Source of the DNA: Eledone cirrhosa
Lineage: Eukaryota
Direction of reading: 5' to 3'
Assembly: GCA_964016885.1 (NCBI GenBank)
Contig: OZ024742.1
Span: forward strand, 280,364,001 to 280,428,000
Length of the DNA: 64,000 nucleotides
Every line of letters starts with the position of its first letter. Position 1 is the stretch's first letter. Positions 47,506 through 61,745 of this stretch are shown here, piece by piece. The position numbers and the translations under genes are program-made. Under the pieces are notes generated by a model. That model did no database searches and had not been told where the DNA came from. It worked only from the letters and a program-made list of their open reading frames with translations.

Positions 47506-47571
<66 letters not shown>

Positions 47572-47572
<1 letters not shown>

Positions 47573-47955
47573 AAATGAAAATCCGAAGGCAAGGTAAAAT
47601 TTCCAATCATTTTAATCACGACACATATTTCAATAAGAGATAGATCGATCGTGAAGACATGATCCATTATCACTGATCTCATCAGGTGAACATGAATTGT
47701 CTTCAAATTCTTGATATAAGGGAGAAAATTAGCAATGTTCACTCACAGAGTTTATTCCCTCATATGAGGGAATAAACTCTGTGAGTGAACATTGCTAATT
47801 TTCTCCTTCATATCAAGAATCTGAAGACAATTCGTTGTTACCGGATGAGATCAGTGAGAATCGATCATGGCTTCACGATCGATCTATCTCTTATTGAAAT
47901 ATGTGTCGTGATTAAAATGATTGGAAATTTTACCTTGCCTTCGAATTTTCATTTT

Positions 47956-47956
<1 letters not shown>
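47572..47956. mobile_element. Spacerless palindrome (~192 bp arms, centre CATATG 47761-47766) with an HHR in each arm
   Basis: Arms are reverse-complementary with scattered substitutions; flanked by (TA)n on both sides. Confidence 0.92.
47616..47689 (-). ncRNA. Type I hammerhead motif; mirror copy at 47838-47911(+) has a CGGATGA core mutation
   Basis: Minus strand: TCAC CTGATGA GAT...ATT GAAA TATGTG TC GTGA. The third copy at ~46877-46893 reads GAAA CATGTG TC GTGA. Confidence 0.65.
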
Positions 47957-47987
<31 letters not shown>

Positions 47988-47992
<5 letters not shown>

Positions 47993-53554: not shown

Positions 53555-54720
53555 GGATTTCCCGTGGACAGTGGTGCAGTGGACATGATGTTTTCTGCCA
53601 GACAGCTCCAGGAAAAGAGTATTGAAACAAGGTTACATCGCTTTCAAGTGTTCATTAACCTGGTAAAGGCATTTGGCACAGATAATAGAGAAGCTCTTTG
53701 GAAAATACTTGTAAACATTGGGACAAAATGTTGATAACCACGCACCAGTGATTTGAGGTAACGAAAGCCTTTGTGAATATTGATTGAAATGTGTCAGAAG
53801 CTATTGCTGCAAGGAAGGGCCTCAAACAGGTGATATAACAGCACCGACACTCTTTACATTGTTCTCTGCAGTTCTTTTTTTAACGGCATTTAAAGACTGT
53901 CGACATGGAATATTCATCAGGTTTCGTACATATGGGAAGCTTACAACATACGAAGCTCATGTATTCAATGTTGAGGGATATTCTCTATGTAGATGACTGC
54001 AATATTTTTGCTGACGCGTGGAGAGATATGCAGAATCTACTGAACGTCTTCAGCAATGCATGTTCTGCCCTTGGTTTAACAATTAGATTGAAAAAAAATG
54101 TGGCCATTTACTAGCCAGCACCAGGAAAAGCATACGTAGAACCAAACATAAAAGTGTATGGTCAGGAACTCTAGATTTATCCTGGCAGTACTGTAAGCGT
54201 GCGGTGCATTCTTGACAATGAAATATCATCAAGAATCAGCAGAGCTAGTGACGCCTTCGGAATGCTGGAGAAACGATTATTGTTTCACCAAGGTATCTCT
54301 ATTTATACTATATTTACTGTATTCTTGTGAGACGTGGGTTACTTACAGGAAAAATCTAAAGCAGCCTGGGGGCCTTCAACCAGCTGGAGTGCCATCGTCG
54401 AATCTTGGATCTACACTCACTGCATGTGAGCGATGTTGAGAACCTTGAAAGATGTCACTGTCAGAGAATCGAGCCAATTATCATGCAATACCGTTTCCGA
54501 TTGGTAGGATATGTGAGAATGGAGTACTCTAGGTTTCCCAAACAACTCATTATTGTGAGCTGAAGGATGGCTCATATTCACTTGATAAACTTAAGAATAA
54601 GTTCAAAAGGTGTGTGAAAACATCTCTGATGGAAGCTGGTATCTCGAACGGAGGTGGGGAATAAGCTGCCAGGCATAGAACTCCTTGACGTGAAAGTATA
54701 CTTTGAAAGTGAAAGTATAC
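53555..54720 (+). mobile_element. Decayed RTE (BovB-like) LINE, RT and 3' portion
   Basis: CGFP....VDMMFSARQLQEKSIE...FINLVKAF...REALWKIL; QTGDITAPTLFTLF; LYVDDC; LLYSCETW. Confidence 0.85.
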
Positions 54721-54744
54721 TTTGAAACAACCTAAAGAAATACT

Positions 54745-54945
54745 GTTCTATATTTTTGAGATGAGGAATTATTTACATTATATACATTGGTCGGATAGGT
54801 GCCCTCATCTTATTTTGTTGTTAACACAACGTTTCGGCTGATGTATCCTCCAGCCTTCATCAGGTGTCCTAGTGATGTTATTATTGACGTTTGTTCAGGT
54901 CACTGCCTCGAATTGAATTCGGAATCTTGAGATTAGTAGCCCGCT
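54745..54945 (-). mobile_element. SINE-like element: tRNA-like 5' head joined to a hammerhead-containing 3' part
   Basis: Minus strand: GCGGGCTACTAATCTCAAGATTCCGAATTCAATTCGAGGCAGTGACC (anticodon/T-arm-like, degenerate B box), ~25 nt linker, then HHR. The A box is lost in the (CT)n tract. Confidence 0.6.
54823..54868 (-). ncRNA. Minimal type I hammerhead motif (dimer-type, palindromic ACGT stem III)
   Basis: Minus strand: GACAC CTGATGA a GGCTG gaggatacat CAGCC GAA ACGT T GTGTT. Confidence 0.85.
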
Positions 54946-54959
54946 CTCTCTCTCTCTAT

Positions 54960-55100
<141 letters not shown>

Positions 55101-55101
55101 T

Positions 55102-55291
55102 GAACAAGTATGACCCCGACGGCAGAGCTCAAGCCGTTTCGACGGCTATGTTTGGACTAAAATACCCGTCGAAACGGCTTGAGCTCTGCCGTCGGGGTCA
55201 TACTTGTTCCTATTACCCACTCTACTACAATAAGTATTGAGTACTTTGGTGCGTTATGGTCCATCTGGTTCCTTACCAGAATTTCTTCGTT
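55102..55291 (+). mobile_element. Family-B fold-back element: perfect 44 bp arms, hammerhead 3' half, ~80 nt tail
   Basis: 55102-55145 is the exact reverse complement of 55166-55209; GAAA CGGC ttgagctct GCCG TC GGGGTC at 55171-55199. Confidence 0.9.
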
Positions 55292-55415: not shown

Positions 55416-55596
55416 CAATCTAGCTGTCGTCTGTTCTACAGTGTGGATGTAATTCACTTCGCGCAGAAGTTTTGTTACTAACACCACAAACAAAGACACA
55501 ACAAACACAAAAATAACATTTGAAAATAACACCATAACAGAAAGCAAAGCAGACGACAGAGTCAAGAATTCATTTGCACAAACAACAAAGAAATCT

Positions 55597-57159
55597 TTGA
55601 CATATGTACCCGAAAATATTTCAGATGTGGCACGAAGAATCACAGACGCCAAACAATACATAAGTGAAGGAGAGAATGGTATTTTATCGGTAAAAATGCC
55701 TCAAGAACTCACCAAAGACATTGAAAGTAGAACGGTCGTGTTACGCACCATCAACAACACTTCAAAAAAACCTGAACAGCATTCTCAAGCAGATATCAAA
55801 ACAGTACTCACAGAAGTCCTTAATGAAACCACTTTCATAAGAAAAGACAGACTGTATGGAAGACTAGCAATTATCATGAAGAACGAATCGGCGGCAAAAA
55901 AATGTGCTTTGTCACCGATTCGTTCGAAAAATTTTACCTTTTATCCATCTTATATGGGTAAAAGAACTCAACGCATATGGCTGGATGCAATGATGCCAGA
56001 TGTGGACTACTGCTGGCTCATAGCTGGCTTCATCGATCCAGTGAATGACAACGTTATTTCCATTGGGAAAACCACAGGCAATGCGTTCAGTGGAACATGT
56101 ATAGTGCTGGTAGTGCAAATGAATCCTGAACGCATCGCCTAAATACCCGACAGAATCCTATTAGAGGGCCACAAGTATATAAACATTAGCGTGGAGGGGA
56201 GAAGGCCGTCCTGCCATATCTGTGCAGGCAGAGGGCACCTGAAGGCCGCTTGTCCCCAACTCAACAAAAAGAAAACCCTGCTACCAACACCAGCTCCACC
56301 ACCACCACCACAACAGATAAACAAACAACAAAACTCAGTCCCACCCAACACGTCCCTCAGTAAAACCACACCACCACCACAACACAAACAGTCACAACAC
56401 ATTACCCCAAAACAAAATACAGGCCCACCCAACCCCTCACTCAATAAAACAACACAACCACCGCAGACACAACACACAACACAGTCTAACATAGTGACAT
56501 CCATCTCTCCCACAAAGAAAACCAACACGGAAACATTACCAGCAAACATACCTCTTCCCTCCAACACTGAAGATAACCCAACGAATTCGGAGGAAGAAAC
56601 GGAGTCCTTCAGACAGATTAAAAGGAAAAAAAGAAAACATGTGCAAAACACACAAGGCCAAAAAATCCCCACCCAAATCTCAACACAACCCAACAAAACA
56701 GAAAACACCCCTCCAGCAACAAACAAAACCAAACTTGCCCCTCCCCTCTTCGAAACACTCACACCATCCGAAAAAAAGACATTACACTATACTTACATCA
56801 ACAGAAACAATAATAAATTAAATGAACTCATAAACAATAATCCTTCGGTACAAACCGAAGGTGTAAACTTTGTTTCTTCAGAAAACTACCCACATTTAAA
56901 ATTAATAAAGATCCCAATGAACCTCTACCAAAAACTAAAAAAGGATTTTAAGGATGACGTAGGACGACCCTCTGTCAAACCCATAAACCGCGTCCTACTA
57001 AAAAGCTTTCCCCCTCCCCTTCCCCTCCCCAACACAACTCCAAACACCCCAACCCCACCACACACTGACGACCCCACACCACCACAAGACACCCCTTCAC
57101 CCAACACCCCCGACCCCATGGAAGTCGTGCAACCCGAACCCGGGGAAGCGGAAAGGTAG
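55597..57159 (+). pseudogene. LINE ORF1 (gag-like, CCHC knuckle, Pro/Thr-rich tail) with one in-frame stop
   Basis: ORFs 55597-56142 and 56191-57159 are in the same frame; CHICAGRGHLKAAC; homologous to the 43387-44307 ORFs. Confidence 0.85.
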
Positions 57160-57192
57160 GTCTCTACACTCTCCTTTGGCTCTGCTGCCCAC

Positions 57193-60100
57193 ATGGATGT
57201 GTTAAGAGTAGGATGTTTGAATGCACGTGGCCTGGGCTCAACTTGGAAGCAAGCAAAGCTTCTAAATGACCTCAGGTCATGTGGTATAAATGTAATGGTT
57301 ATCTGTGAGACTCGAATCAGCGTCGTGCGGCAGCTGGCCCCTACCTTCGATGACTTTGAGGTGCATGCATCTCTCTGTCAACCTGGAGGTGGGGTGGGGT
57401 TGTCGTACTGCTGCAAAAACACCTGGGTCTTGCCGTACAGGTTGTGCACTCGGACCCGGAGGGTCGTTTGTTGGTGCTAGACGTTGGCAGTAGTGAAGGT
57501 GCGGCCTTGAGACTGGTCGCCGTCTACTCCCCTTTCGGAGCTGAACGGCCCGACTTCTTCCAGCGTTTGGAGACTTTTCTGGGAACGTCGCGTTCCCTGC
57601 TCCTAGCGGGGGTTGGAATGACATCCTAGATGCACGTTGGGACTATGCAGGAGCATGTCCTAATAGAGGGGGGTGTAACAGCCTCAAGGGGTTACTCGAC
57701 CGTTTTAACTTGGTCGATAGATATCGACTAGATTTTCCAACTGTGCCTACCTGGACTTGGAGAAACCACAGTGGTCAATCTAGATCGTACTTAGATAGAT
57801 TCTTAATTAGAAGTAAGGATAGGGACATATTAAGCTGTCCAGAAATGCGCACGGTTGGCTACACGGATCACAAATTAGTGACCTGCGTAGTCAATCTCGA
57901 GAAAACACATAAACAGGGTCCCGGTTACTGGAAACTTAATTTGTCTTTACCGGCAAAAGAGACTTACATAAACGGGATTAGCAGATTAGTTAAGGAGAGG
58001 TTGACGGGTGCAATCGTCAACAACAGATGGTGGGCATCTCTCAAAAGAGAGATTAGAACAGAATCAATAAGTTATAGCAAGATGTTAGCTGCCGATAGGA
58101 ATAGAAACGAGAAAGAATTAACAGGTAAATTAGAAGAGGCAATCAAGAGTGAAGATGTGGCCAGAGTGCTGGCATCGAGGACGGCCTTGAACCAGTTTTT
58201 CGATGCAAAGCACGAAGGCTGCGTCATTCGAAGTAAAATACGTGCTCTAGGTAATGAGGGGGCCAAAGACGTTGGCTGGGCCCGCGTGACAGAAGCTAAG
58301 AATGGAAATCGATCCACCATCCGGTCGTTGTAAGACGAAGATGGACGGGTGATCCGGGAGCCTAAGCAGATGTGCGAGGCCTTTCAAAGGCACTTTGGCC
58401 GATTGTTCGAGGGAGGCGAGGGTCTGGGCGGGGGCGTGGATTTCGGTCCATACCTCGACGGCCTGCTGCGTCTCTCGAGCGAAGAGGCAGAGTCCTGCGA
58501 GGGACCAATCTCGGCTGATGAGATCGGAGATGCGCTGAGCCAATGCATCAGACGCAAATCTCCAGGTCTCGATGGTATACCTTACGAACTTTATTTAGCA
58601 ATGCCGGTCTTCTTCTCCGAACTCCTCGAAGCGGTCTACTGCAATTGGCAGCAGAACGGGAGAATTCCTTGTTCTGTAGCCAAGGGCGTAGTCTCGCTGG
58701 TGAGGAAGGACGAGAACAAGGGAGATAGTATAAATAATTTTCGGCCCATAACCCTGCTAAACACAGAGTTAAAGATTTTGGCCAAGGTGTTAGCAAAGCG
58801 GTTGGCGCTTGTCGTGGGTGGCCTGGTGGGAGATGCGCAGACATGTGCTATCCCATCCAGGTCAATTCACGATAACCTCCACCTCATGCGATACATCATA
58901 GAGAGGGTTGGCAACAAACCCGGATTCGGTGGGGCCCTGATCAACTTAGATCAGTCTAAGGCCTTGGATAGGGTAGACCATGTTTACCTGGATGCGGTGC
59001 TAGCGGCGGCTGGGTTCGGTCCTGTTTTCAGAGGCTGGATCACTGTCTTACATAGCAACCACATCTGTTCTAGGATCAAGGTGAACGGCTACCTTTCGAA
59101 GCCGTTCGAAATCACACGATCCATTCGACAGGGGTGCCCTCTCTCCTACTTCTGTACGTATTGACTCTCGAGCCTCTACTGAGGAAGTTGGAGTTGTTGC
59201 AGGGTATCCTCCTGGAACCAGGATTGAGCAAAGCGGTGTCGGCCTACGCCGATGACGTAACAGTAATGGTATCGACCGACTCGGAGATCGAGGCGATCGG
59301 TACCTTACTGGAGGATTACGAAAGGTTGTCAGGAGCGAAACTGAACCGGGAAAACTCCATCGGGCTGCAACTCGGAACGTGGAGAGGCAGACCGATGCCT
59401 CCCGACGGTGTCGTCGGACACTGGACGGAAGGCCCGGTAAAGTTGCTTGGAGTCTGGTTTGGACCGGACCTCCAGGTGGAAAAGAACTGGAAAGAGGTTA
59501 CGAACAAGGTGTTTGCACTAACCCAGAAATGGGCCAAGTGTAAGCTGTCCCTGAAAGGCCGGGCGGAGGTGGCGAACATTTACATAGCGTCCGTCACTTA
59601 CTACCGCCTGACTGTCGTGCCTTGCCCTAAGGAAACACTCACCACCATGGAACGCATGCTCTTCCAATTTCTTTGGAAGAAGCGCCCTCCTATGGTGAGA
59701 AGATCCATCTGCTGCCAACAACCTTCGAAAGGAGGGCTGGGGATGCCGTGGTTGATGATGCGTAGGCACGCATTAAGGCTACGGCACCTACAGGTATTCC
59801 TCACTGGTCAACCGGTGTGGCCTCCGTTCGTGAAACGAGCCTTTCCGAGACTAGTCTCGCTCACCGTGCTACAGTCCTGGGTCAAGCAAAGATCCGGAAA
59901 ACTGGGAGACTGGCACACTGAGTGTGCTCAGGCGCTCAGGGCTCTCTGGCAAGCGGGCTAGGCCATCGGTGGAGAATCCACCTCATCATTCTATAGAGGG
60001 CTGGTGGCTAGCAGGGGCGATGACACCCTTGGAGAGTCGCTGGTCATGGAAGAAGACGAACCGGCCAGCCTGTTAGGTAGGACTTTCGGCCCAGGACCAA

Positions 60101-60627
60101 TGGACAACTTCCAGAAGTCACTGGTCTGGCAGTGCTACCGAGGGGCTCTACCCGTTCGAGAGAGGCTCTACAGACACGGGCGCCCGGGCAGGGATCCCTC
60201 AAAAAAGATTTGCCCTAGATGCGTGCGTCACGAAGAAACCGTTGCGGACGCATTGGTGCAATGTCCGGGCGTGGCTGATCTGTGGGGCTACGCCGAACGA
60301 CTGCTGTCGCGGGTGGCGCCGATTCAATTGACCGCCGAGTCCGTGATGACAATCAAACCGCCTCCCCTCTTCACAAAGGAAGCAAAGGCGGTTTTTCTGT
60401 GCGTAATAGCCATGTTGAAAGAGGTTGTTTGGTGGACACGATTGAAAGGTCTGAGGTCAGGCAACTTCCTCTCTGGCCATAGTCTGGTCTACTTCTTCCG
60501 ATATCACTTCGGAAGAAGGATAAGAATGGAGAGAGAGGTGCTTGTCCACAGGCAGTTTTATGAAAGGTGGGTGATAGTGGCGAGAATGGCTCGTGTAAAT
60601 GGGCCTTCTCTGTATACCATCCTGTAG
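57193..60627 (+). pseudogene. LINE ORF2 (APE endonuclease, reverse transcriptase, C-terminal Cys motif) with several frameshifts and stops
   Basis: VGCLNARGL, ICET, YLDR, YTDH, GPGYWKLN, KSPGLDG, FRPITLLN, LDQSKALDRVDH, RQGCPLS, AYADD, CPRC. Confidence 0.92.
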
Positions 60628-61524: not shown

Positions 61525-61745
61525 AAGGGCGGTGGATTGGCAGTATCGGTAGAGTGTCGGACGCTATGCTTTGCAACAAAGAGTTATGGCCCTTTATGAG
61601 CTGAGTTCAAATCACGCCGAGGTTAACTTTACCTGTCATCCTTACGGGGTCGATAAAATAAAGTACTAGTCACGTACTGAGGTCGATTTAATCGACTTTC
61701 CACTCCCCAACAGTGCTGGCCTTGTGTCTATATAAGAAACCAATA
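61525..61745 (+). mobile_element. tRNA-derived SINE, most complete copy, with apparent target-site duplication
   Basis: Same head and core as the other copies. AATATATTATGACGAATTCAA occurs at both 61506-61526 and 61742-61762. Confidence 0.85.

What the first reader, a model, noticed from the sequence alone, without database searches (positions are those of the whole stretch)
54745..54945. tRNA-headed SINE terminating in a hammerhead ribozyme
Seen on the minus strand: a tRNA-like segment with a degenerate B box, a short linker, a clean minimal HHR (5-bp stem II, ACGT stem III), and a tail that can pair GATGAGG with CCTCATC. Established: SINE 3' ends usually derive from their partner retroelement, and schistosome SM-alpha is a precedent for a Pol III repeat with an HHR. 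Inference: a Pol III-transcribed SINE that borrows a PLE-type terminus and may be mobilised by a PLE rather than a LINE.
Basis: partly seen in the sequence, partly recalled or inferred. Interest (0 to 1): 0.7.

Follow-up and report, generated by a model that had tools for sequence, protein, structure and literature searches.

The report
tRNA-headed Penelope retrotransposon end repeat
This is one worn copy of a repeat family, in what is likely an octopus genome, that joins a tRNA-like stretch to a hammerhead self-cutting-RNA motif; it is likely the end piece of a Penelope-type jumping gene rather than a separate SINE, and the tRNA-like stretch would be an unusual built-in promoter.

Summary
The hammerhead is real: the only full type I descriptor hit in 64 kb, none in 100 shuffles, predicted cut 54828/54827. 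It sits mid-element, with about 85 conserved bases after it. Head and hammerhead are linked in other copies (RAD reads of two samples; 3 of 8 listed contigs), so this is a family, not a chance neighbourhood. The head is weaker than stated: only a tRNA 3' half, B box off at G53, no A box in this copy; ARAGORN, Rfam and a tRNA model miss it, though invariant bases fall at exact tRNA spacing (23 of 5000 shuffles). Penelope-type copying is supported: minimal palindromic hammerhead, (AT)n after 3' ends, hints of two ends about 30 bp apart, no target duplication or poly(A). 'SINE' is not shown: an ATG in the core opens a 40-codon frame whose single stop is private to this copy, as where a Poseidon ORF starts, so I favour a truncated pLTR of a coding element with a tRNA-derived head (0.5) over a stand-alone SINE (0.28). 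No assembly or RNA was available. The scan noted the same layout in another genome (e1-8669850), which shaped this reading.

The parts
54898..54944 (-). tRNA-like 3' half (anticodon arm, variable loop, T arm, acceptor 3' strand); 5' half absent in this copy
   Evidence: sequence; motif match 54939-54910 with 1 mismatch; not found by ARAGORN, Rfam or model R1; repeated in organisms A and B
54910..54918 (-). degenerate B box (A in place of G53)
   Evidence: consensus recalled
54869..54897 (-). short linker with an AAT remnant; shared by organism A copies, replaced by other sequence in organism B
   Evidence: continuous depth in X1, X5, X6; depth hole 54873-54885 and loose ends in X4
54823..54868 (-). 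minimal type I hammerhead, palindromic stem III, predicted cut between 54828 and 54827
   Evidence: matches the min-HHR traits in PMC4209133
54741..54860 (-). 40-codon frame from the ATG inside the core; one stop (54812-54810) private to this copy; candidate N-terminus of a Penelope-type ORF
   Evidence: 52 of 53 and 70 of 71 reads differ at 54812; no protein homologue found
54759..54810 (-). 9-bp stem closing an A/U-rich loop; candidate binding and priming structure
   Evidence: family differences at 54802 and 54762 keep the pairs
54740..54772 (-). candidate optional Penelope 'tail' and 3' end of the element
   Evidence: loose ends at 54739 (4 and 6 reads, (AT)n; 5 contigs of unlike flanks); 2 X1 contigs end at 54770 and 54773
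54944..55098 (.). (CT)n(TA)n(AG)n microsatellite at the 5' junction, where the D arm and A box would lie

Best explanation
This is a decayed copy of a repeat family that links a tRNA-like stretch to a minimal hammerhead motif, and it is likely the 5'-truncated end repeat (pLTR plus tail) of a protein-coding Penelope-like retrotransposon, whose tRNA-derived head would serve as an internal RNA polymerase III promoter. Shown: the hammerhead, the linkage in other copies, the shared 3' end near 54740, (AT)n after many ends. Inferred, by analogy with Poseidon_Ac (PMC11167929): the ORF starts at the ribozyme; the protein binds the first 120 or so coding bases, nicks AT-rich DNA and primes inside the stem-loop at one of two sites, giving ends with or without a 30-bp tail; most products stop early, as here. 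The ribozyme is copied uncut and would cut only as a dimer or with protein help. Untested: Pol III transcription, cleavage, the parent ORF.
For: Family: 78 (X5) and 95 (X6) RAD reads laid, 72 and 78 of them under 95% alike, depth continuous from 54770 to 54914; X1 pieces 6, 7, 8 (3 of 8 listed, of 125 laid) run from the core to 54936-54945 with 6-13 other letters. Ribozyme traits of PLE min-HHRs: extra base before stem II, G-C closing pair, palindromic stem III. Ends: (AT)n loose ends, second end about 31-34 bp inside in 2 contigs, no duplication longer than a 7-base word; 30-40 bp tails and (TA)n targets are PLE traits. Geometry like Poseidon_Ac: cut +33 and end +119 to +122 from the ATG here against +26 and priming at 111-118. 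Frame: stops 1, 3, 4 in the three frames; 4.2% of shuffles have none; reading the listed majority letters codon by codon (table, by eye) leaves no stop in either organism, across 9 majority differences between them. Depth falls steadily towards the head (X1 about 2600 to 30; X4 over 3 million to about 0.3 million), as 5' truncation would give. Coding PLE remnants exist in this window.
Against: No parent ORF was seen: peptide searches gave nothing real (the one hit is an immunoglobulin-repeat protein; none of 27 RT hits or the window's PLE matches). The ATG comes free with a CUGAUGA core, lies 5 bases before stem II rather than at it, and a young non-coding derivative would keep an open frame too; p about 0.04 is weak. 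The head fails three tRNA detectors and has no A box here. The depth fall can come from alignment edges, and summed contig depth is no copy number. The short-end class rests on 2 contigs. In organism B no listed piece (0 of 8) bridges head and hammerhead. RAD reads come from few loci (about 10-14 starts); one stack with a broken core makes up 26 of 60 and 46 of 74 reads. No compensatory change in the ribozyme stems was seen.
Confidence: 0.5

Rival explanations
1. A stand-alone, non-coding Pol III SINE: tRNA head plus a borrowed PLE terminus, copied in trans by a PLE protein.
For: Head and ribozyme linked in a family with a fixed 3' end; organism A has its own short linker; one X1 contig end (33 letters, 30 shown) shows a D-loop-like AGTGG-TTAA motif just upstream of the anticodon arm; no T run over 2 in 204 bases; no coding homologue found. 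Non-autonomous PLE derivatives are known.
Against: No common 5' start shown; copies holding the head are the minority by depth; open frame from the core; absence of TTTT is expected in 95% of shuffles; an unchecked note on a like layout elsewhere reported a coding parent (e1-8669850).
Confidence: 0.28
2. An ordinary PLE end in which the tRNA-like stretch is a passive captured fragment or a chance likeness; transcription comes from Pol II or read-through.
For: ARAGORN, Rfam and model R1 all miss the head; stems poorly paired; window-wide motif count 8 against 4.6 expected; Pol III would stop at T runs inside a long ORF (established).
Against: Gap-free tRNA spacing in 23 of 5000 shuffles; the family letter at 54909 (50 of 55, 67 of 70 reads) restores a T-stem pair; D-loop-like motif upstream in one contig; the head is abundant in two organisms.
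Confidence: 0.17
3. Chance neighbourhood of a SINE fragment and a PLE fragment, or a SINE copied by a LINE.
For: The genome is dense in both; organism B shows no bridging piece.
Against: Same register and same linker in other copies from three runs and two studies of organism A; no poly(A), no target duplication, (AT)n junctions.
Confidence: 0.05

Closest known systems
Poseidon_Ac and other EN+ Penelope/Poseidon elements with minimal hammerheads (PMC11167929, main text read; PMC4209133, parts 1-2 of 4 read)
   Same: Minimal type I hammerhead with palindromic stem III, ATG at the ribozyme, conserved stretch of about 120 bases after it, optional tail, AT-rich targets, copies kept uncut.
   Different: tRNA-like head directly upstream, not mentioned in the parts read; ATG inside the core rather than at stem II; parent ORF not seen.
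Schistosome Sm-alpha / Sj-alpha SINE-like repeats (seen only through passages of PMC6765202 and PMC8490949; original papers not read)
   Same: Pol III-type promoter followed by a type I hammerhead.
   Different: Described as tandem repeats freed by cleavage; here a single dispersed copy with PLE-type end, a minimal ribozyme and a candidate coding start.
Metazoan non-LTR retrozymes (PMC7229834, passages; bioRxiv 10.64898/2026.07.22.740005, part 1 of 5)
   Same: Type I hammerhead, proposed origin from PLE pLTRs.
   Different: Defined by tandem units with a ribozyme in each; this copy has one ribozyme and no second unit in the window.
Helenus and Ajax/Cassandra TRIMs (PMC10886601, abstract start and passages)
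   Same: A small-RNA-derived Pol III promoter lodged in the terminal repeat of a retroelement that is not a LINE partner.
   Different: Those are LTR elements with PBS, PPT and target duplications; this is a Penelope-type end with a ribozyme.
Octopus tRNA SINEs OK, OR1, OR2 (Ohshima and Okada 1994; title only in reference lists, OR1 named a CORE-SINE in PMC4824008 passages)
   Same: tRNA-derived repeats of octopus.
   Different: Sequences not available here; identity with one of them could not be tested.

Membership tests
Minimal type I hammerhead of PLEs | CUGANGA and GAAA cores, stems I and II, NUH site, no stable stem III but a palindrome | tested here: met
   traits
Minimal type I hammerhead of PLEs | Core and stems conserved across copies, with covariation | tested here: inconclusive
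   majority letters of X1 and X4 keep core and stems; no compensatory change; one RAD stack has a broken core
Minimal type I hammerhead of PLEs | Self-cleavage | not testable with these tools
   needs an assay; no RNA run listed
EN+ Penelope-like element | RT plus GIY-YIG ORF continuous with this end repeat | tested here: inconclusive
   40-codon frame only; no homologue; no assembly
EN+ Penelope-like element | Optional 30-40 bp tail, two 3' ends | tested here: inconclusive
   main end 54739-54746; 2 contigs end at 54770-54773
EN+ Penelope-like element | AT-rich or (TA)n targets, no poly(A) | tested here: met
   loose ends of X5, X6, X1; this copy's flanks
EN+ Penelope-like element | Tandem or inverted copies | tested here: not met
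   single copy in the window; holds for this locus only
tRNA-derived SINE | Interspersed family with head and body linked | tested here: met
   organism A
tRNA-derived SINE | Intact A and B boxes in the family | tested here: inconclusive
   this copy: no A box, B box 1 mismatch; half an A box in one contig end; table of differences cut by 6 rows
tRNA-derived SINE | Defined 5' start at the tRNA, independent of a coding element | not testable with these tools
   no assembly; no read-out of the flanks upstream of the head
tRNA-derived SINE | Pol III transcript | not testable with these tools
   no RNA holder listed
Non-LTR retrozyme / Sm-alpha type | Head-to-tail units each with a hammerhead | tested here: not met
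   for this locus; no X1, X5 or X6 joint listed

The most novel reading that the evidence does not exclude
A coding Penelope-like retrotransposon of octopuses carries a tRNA-derived Pol III promoter in its end repeat; Pol III makes a short RNA holding the ribozyme and the priming stem-loop, which the element's own protein copies into many SINE-like inserts, and organism A's short-linker family is such a SINE already split off: a SINE born from inside its Penelope partner.
Probability: 0.3. Interest if true: 0.72.

Novelty: new variant of a known kind. Interest (0 to 1): 0.5.

Why it matters
SINEs are classically paired with LINEs, and the PLE promoters in the passages read are internal pLTR promoters with introns, that is Pol II type. 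A tRNA-derived promoter fixed in front of a PLE ribozyme would show a route by which PLEs spawn Pol III SINEs, could re-class part of the large unclassified octopus SINE fraction (893 of 900 recently active SINE families unclassified in PMC13282606), and gives a 250-base substrate for testing PLE priming and the role of the ribozyme. Eight paper searches listed no report of a tRNA-headed PLE end; Dfam, Repbase and subscription journals were not searchable.

Tried and rejected
No whole genome held. No second copy in the window. Rfam at gathering and E-value thresholds: no tRNA or hammerhead; hits are microsatellite noise. No RNA holder listed (no evidence on expression). Only one laying of reads was obtained (4 of the 7 listed runs: X1, X4, X5, X6), so the family's 5' end, A box and G53 stay open. 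Collection scans: 0, 15, 2, 0 loci; all 17 match little beyond the pattern (15-36 bases) and were dropped as chance. Peptide searches negative; P0029 rejected as an immunoglobulin-repeat artefact. The window's own PLE remnant shows no likeness to the element. tRNA model R1 is bacterial and missed the head. The pairing line printed was out of register and was redone. Motif searches in supplements of PMC8557442 and PMC13282606 found 0; those files may not hold the consensus libraries. PMC5785218 not held. Look-ups of earlier findings by sequence and relatives were empty. Summed contig depth (about 2300-3100 against 7.7 on the flank) was not used as a copy number.

Full report
Setting. The window is animal DNA rich in microsatellites and retroelement remnants. 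Of 27 relatives of a reverse-transcriptase piece at 31810-32403, 6 carry names: 4 Octopus sinensis, 1 Argonauta, 1 Mytilus, so the host is likely an octopod. No assembly is held.

The ribozyme. All parts of a type I hammerhead lie on the minus strand between 54868 and 54823: 5-bp stem I, CUGAUGA, one extra A, 5-bp stem II closed by G-C, GAAA, an ACGT palindrome in place of stem III, and GUU at the cut site (54828/54827). My descriptor finds this one site in the window and none in 100 shuffles made in 1-kb blocks. The extra base, the G-C pair and the palindrome are the traits that Cervera and de la Pena list for PLE minimal hammerheads, which cut poorly and as dimers (PMC4209133, parts 1-2 of 4). 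As a monomer the stretch folds stems I and II but pairs the core with the cut-site strand (z -2.55). Rfam misses it. Cleavage is untested.

It is a family. Reads and contigs were laid on 54600-54960 at 80% likeness (4 of 7 runs listed). RAD runs X5 and X6 (organism A, other samples and study than X1) gave 78 and 95 reads, 72 and 78 of them under 95% alike, with even depth from about 54770 to 54914, where 32 of 33 and 51 of 52 molecules end at an AATT site (my reading: the library's cut site). They thus join the 3' end of the head, the linker, the ribozyme and the downstream part. They come from few loci (about 10-14 starts); one stack with a changed core A6 supplies 26 of 60 and 46 of 74 reads. 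Of 125 X1 contigs, 8 are listed; 3 run from the core to 54936-54945 with 6, 10 and 13 other letters. Organism B (X4, 6172 contigs) holds both head and ribozyme part in great depth, but with (AAT)n after the head and another linker before stem I; none of 8 listed pieces bridges them, so linkage there is not shown. Majority differences in A fall in loop II, the linker and the downstream loop, keep two pairs of the 9-bp tail stem (54802, 54762) and restore one T-stem pair (54909); minority changes in B's ribozyme sit at four CpG positions. No compensatory change was seen. Six rows of the difference table and 188 loose ends were not shown.

The ends. Depth drops to background below about 54740. 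Loose ends at 54739 read (AT)n in 4 and 6 RAD reads and unlike flanks in 5 X1 contigs; two X1 contigs stop at 54770 (followed by AT repeats) and 54773. No target duplication or poly(A) is seen at this copy (longest shared word 7 bases). An optional 30-40 bp tail, 5' truncation and microsatellite targets are PLE traits (PMC8557442, passages). In Poseidon_Ac the ORF begins at the ribozyme, the cut lies 26 bases into it, the protein nicks AT-rich DNA and primes in a stem-loop 111-118 bases into the ORF, the tail is the stretch between two priming sites, and uncut RNA is the main template (PMC11167929, main text). Here the cut is +33, the ends +88 to +91 and +119 to +122 from an ATG in the core.

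The frame. That ATG opens 40 codons to the 3' end with one stop, at which 52 of 53 and 70 of 71 reads differ from this copy. The other frames have 3 and 4 stops; 4.2% of shuffles have none. By eye, the listed majority letters leave no stop in either organism. This is modest evidence: the ATG comes with the core, and no protein homologue was found.

The head. Positions 54944-54898 read as tRNA positions 27-73 without gaps; 10 of 11 recalled invariant bases are met, G53 is not. Such a match arises in 23 of 5000 shuffles of the element, but window-wide 8 matches stand against 4.6 expected. ARAGORN, Rfam and a model of 22 bacterial tRNA 3' halves do not detect it, and the stems pair poorly. The D arm and A box are missing here, replaced by microsatellite. 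One X1 contig end carries a D-loop-like AGTGG-TTAA motif at about the right place. tRNA origin is therefore likely, a working promoter unproven. Depth declines towards the head in both contig runs, which fits 5' truncation but also alignment edges.

Mechanism. Shown: motif, family, 3' end, AT-rich junctions. Inferred: a PLE protein copies the RNA from internal priming sites into AT-rich DNA, and this copy is an early-terminated product. Whether the template is the RNA of a coding element whose pLTR starts with the tRNA-like head (0.5), of a free SINE (0.28), or of an ordinary PLE with a passive fragment (0.17) depends on what lies upstream of full heads and downstream of tails, which I could not read. 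The first two can coexist. An unchecked note on another genome describes tRNA head, (AAT)n and hammerhead tail as the pLTR of a coding element (e1-8669850); it moved me to test the frame and gave the Poseidon paper. Its layout resembles organism B's loose ends, but I could not compare sequences.

Known relatives. It works like a Penelope/Poseidon end; membership lacks the parent ORF. It shares the promoter-plus-hammerhead plan of Sm-alpha (passages of PMC6765202 and PMC8490949) but not the tandem layout, and fails the tandem test for retrozymes (part 1 of 5, passages). Helenus/Ajax are the LTR parallel (passages). Octopus repeat surveys read in part do not mention it in the parts seen, and eight searches listed no tRNA-headed PLE. 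Consensus libraries in supplements or Repbase/Dfam that I could not see may already hold it, possibly as an octopus SINE.

Verdict. Real family, Penelope-type copying likely, SINE status and Pol III activity open. New variant of a known kind; interest 0.5.

Noticed in passing
window 55100-55291 (+) and 21086-21258 (+): Two copies of another family: an inverted arm at one end, (TA)n at the other, and a GAAA, a paired stem and GUC that read like half a hammerhead; no CUGANGA strand on that side. Separate from the finding.
   Followed up: partly
window 29071-32403 (-): Broken Penelope-like element: RT pieces and a GIY-YIG domain, with a second endonuclease-like piece at 30739-31128; no hammerhead descriptor hit and no likeness to the finding.
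   Followed up: partly
window 11757-14633, 47535-47992, 37227-37668, 5168-5404: Long palindromes, several centred on (AT)n, 81-94% identical arms.
   Followed up: no
window 40434-44037 (-) and 55453-60627 (+); 7740-10090 (-): Two related LINE-like ORF sets, 65-70% alike at DNA level, and a third broken LINE-like stretch; family labels not tested.
   Followed up: no
window 17131-17160, 24165-24194, 38085-38099, 61584-61613: A four-copy repeat family with a B-box-like motif, probably a conventional tRNA SINE.
   Followed up: no
run X4, beside window 54868: Organism B's linker before stem I contains a second B-box-like motif (GGTTCGAAA on the element's strand).
   Followed up: no
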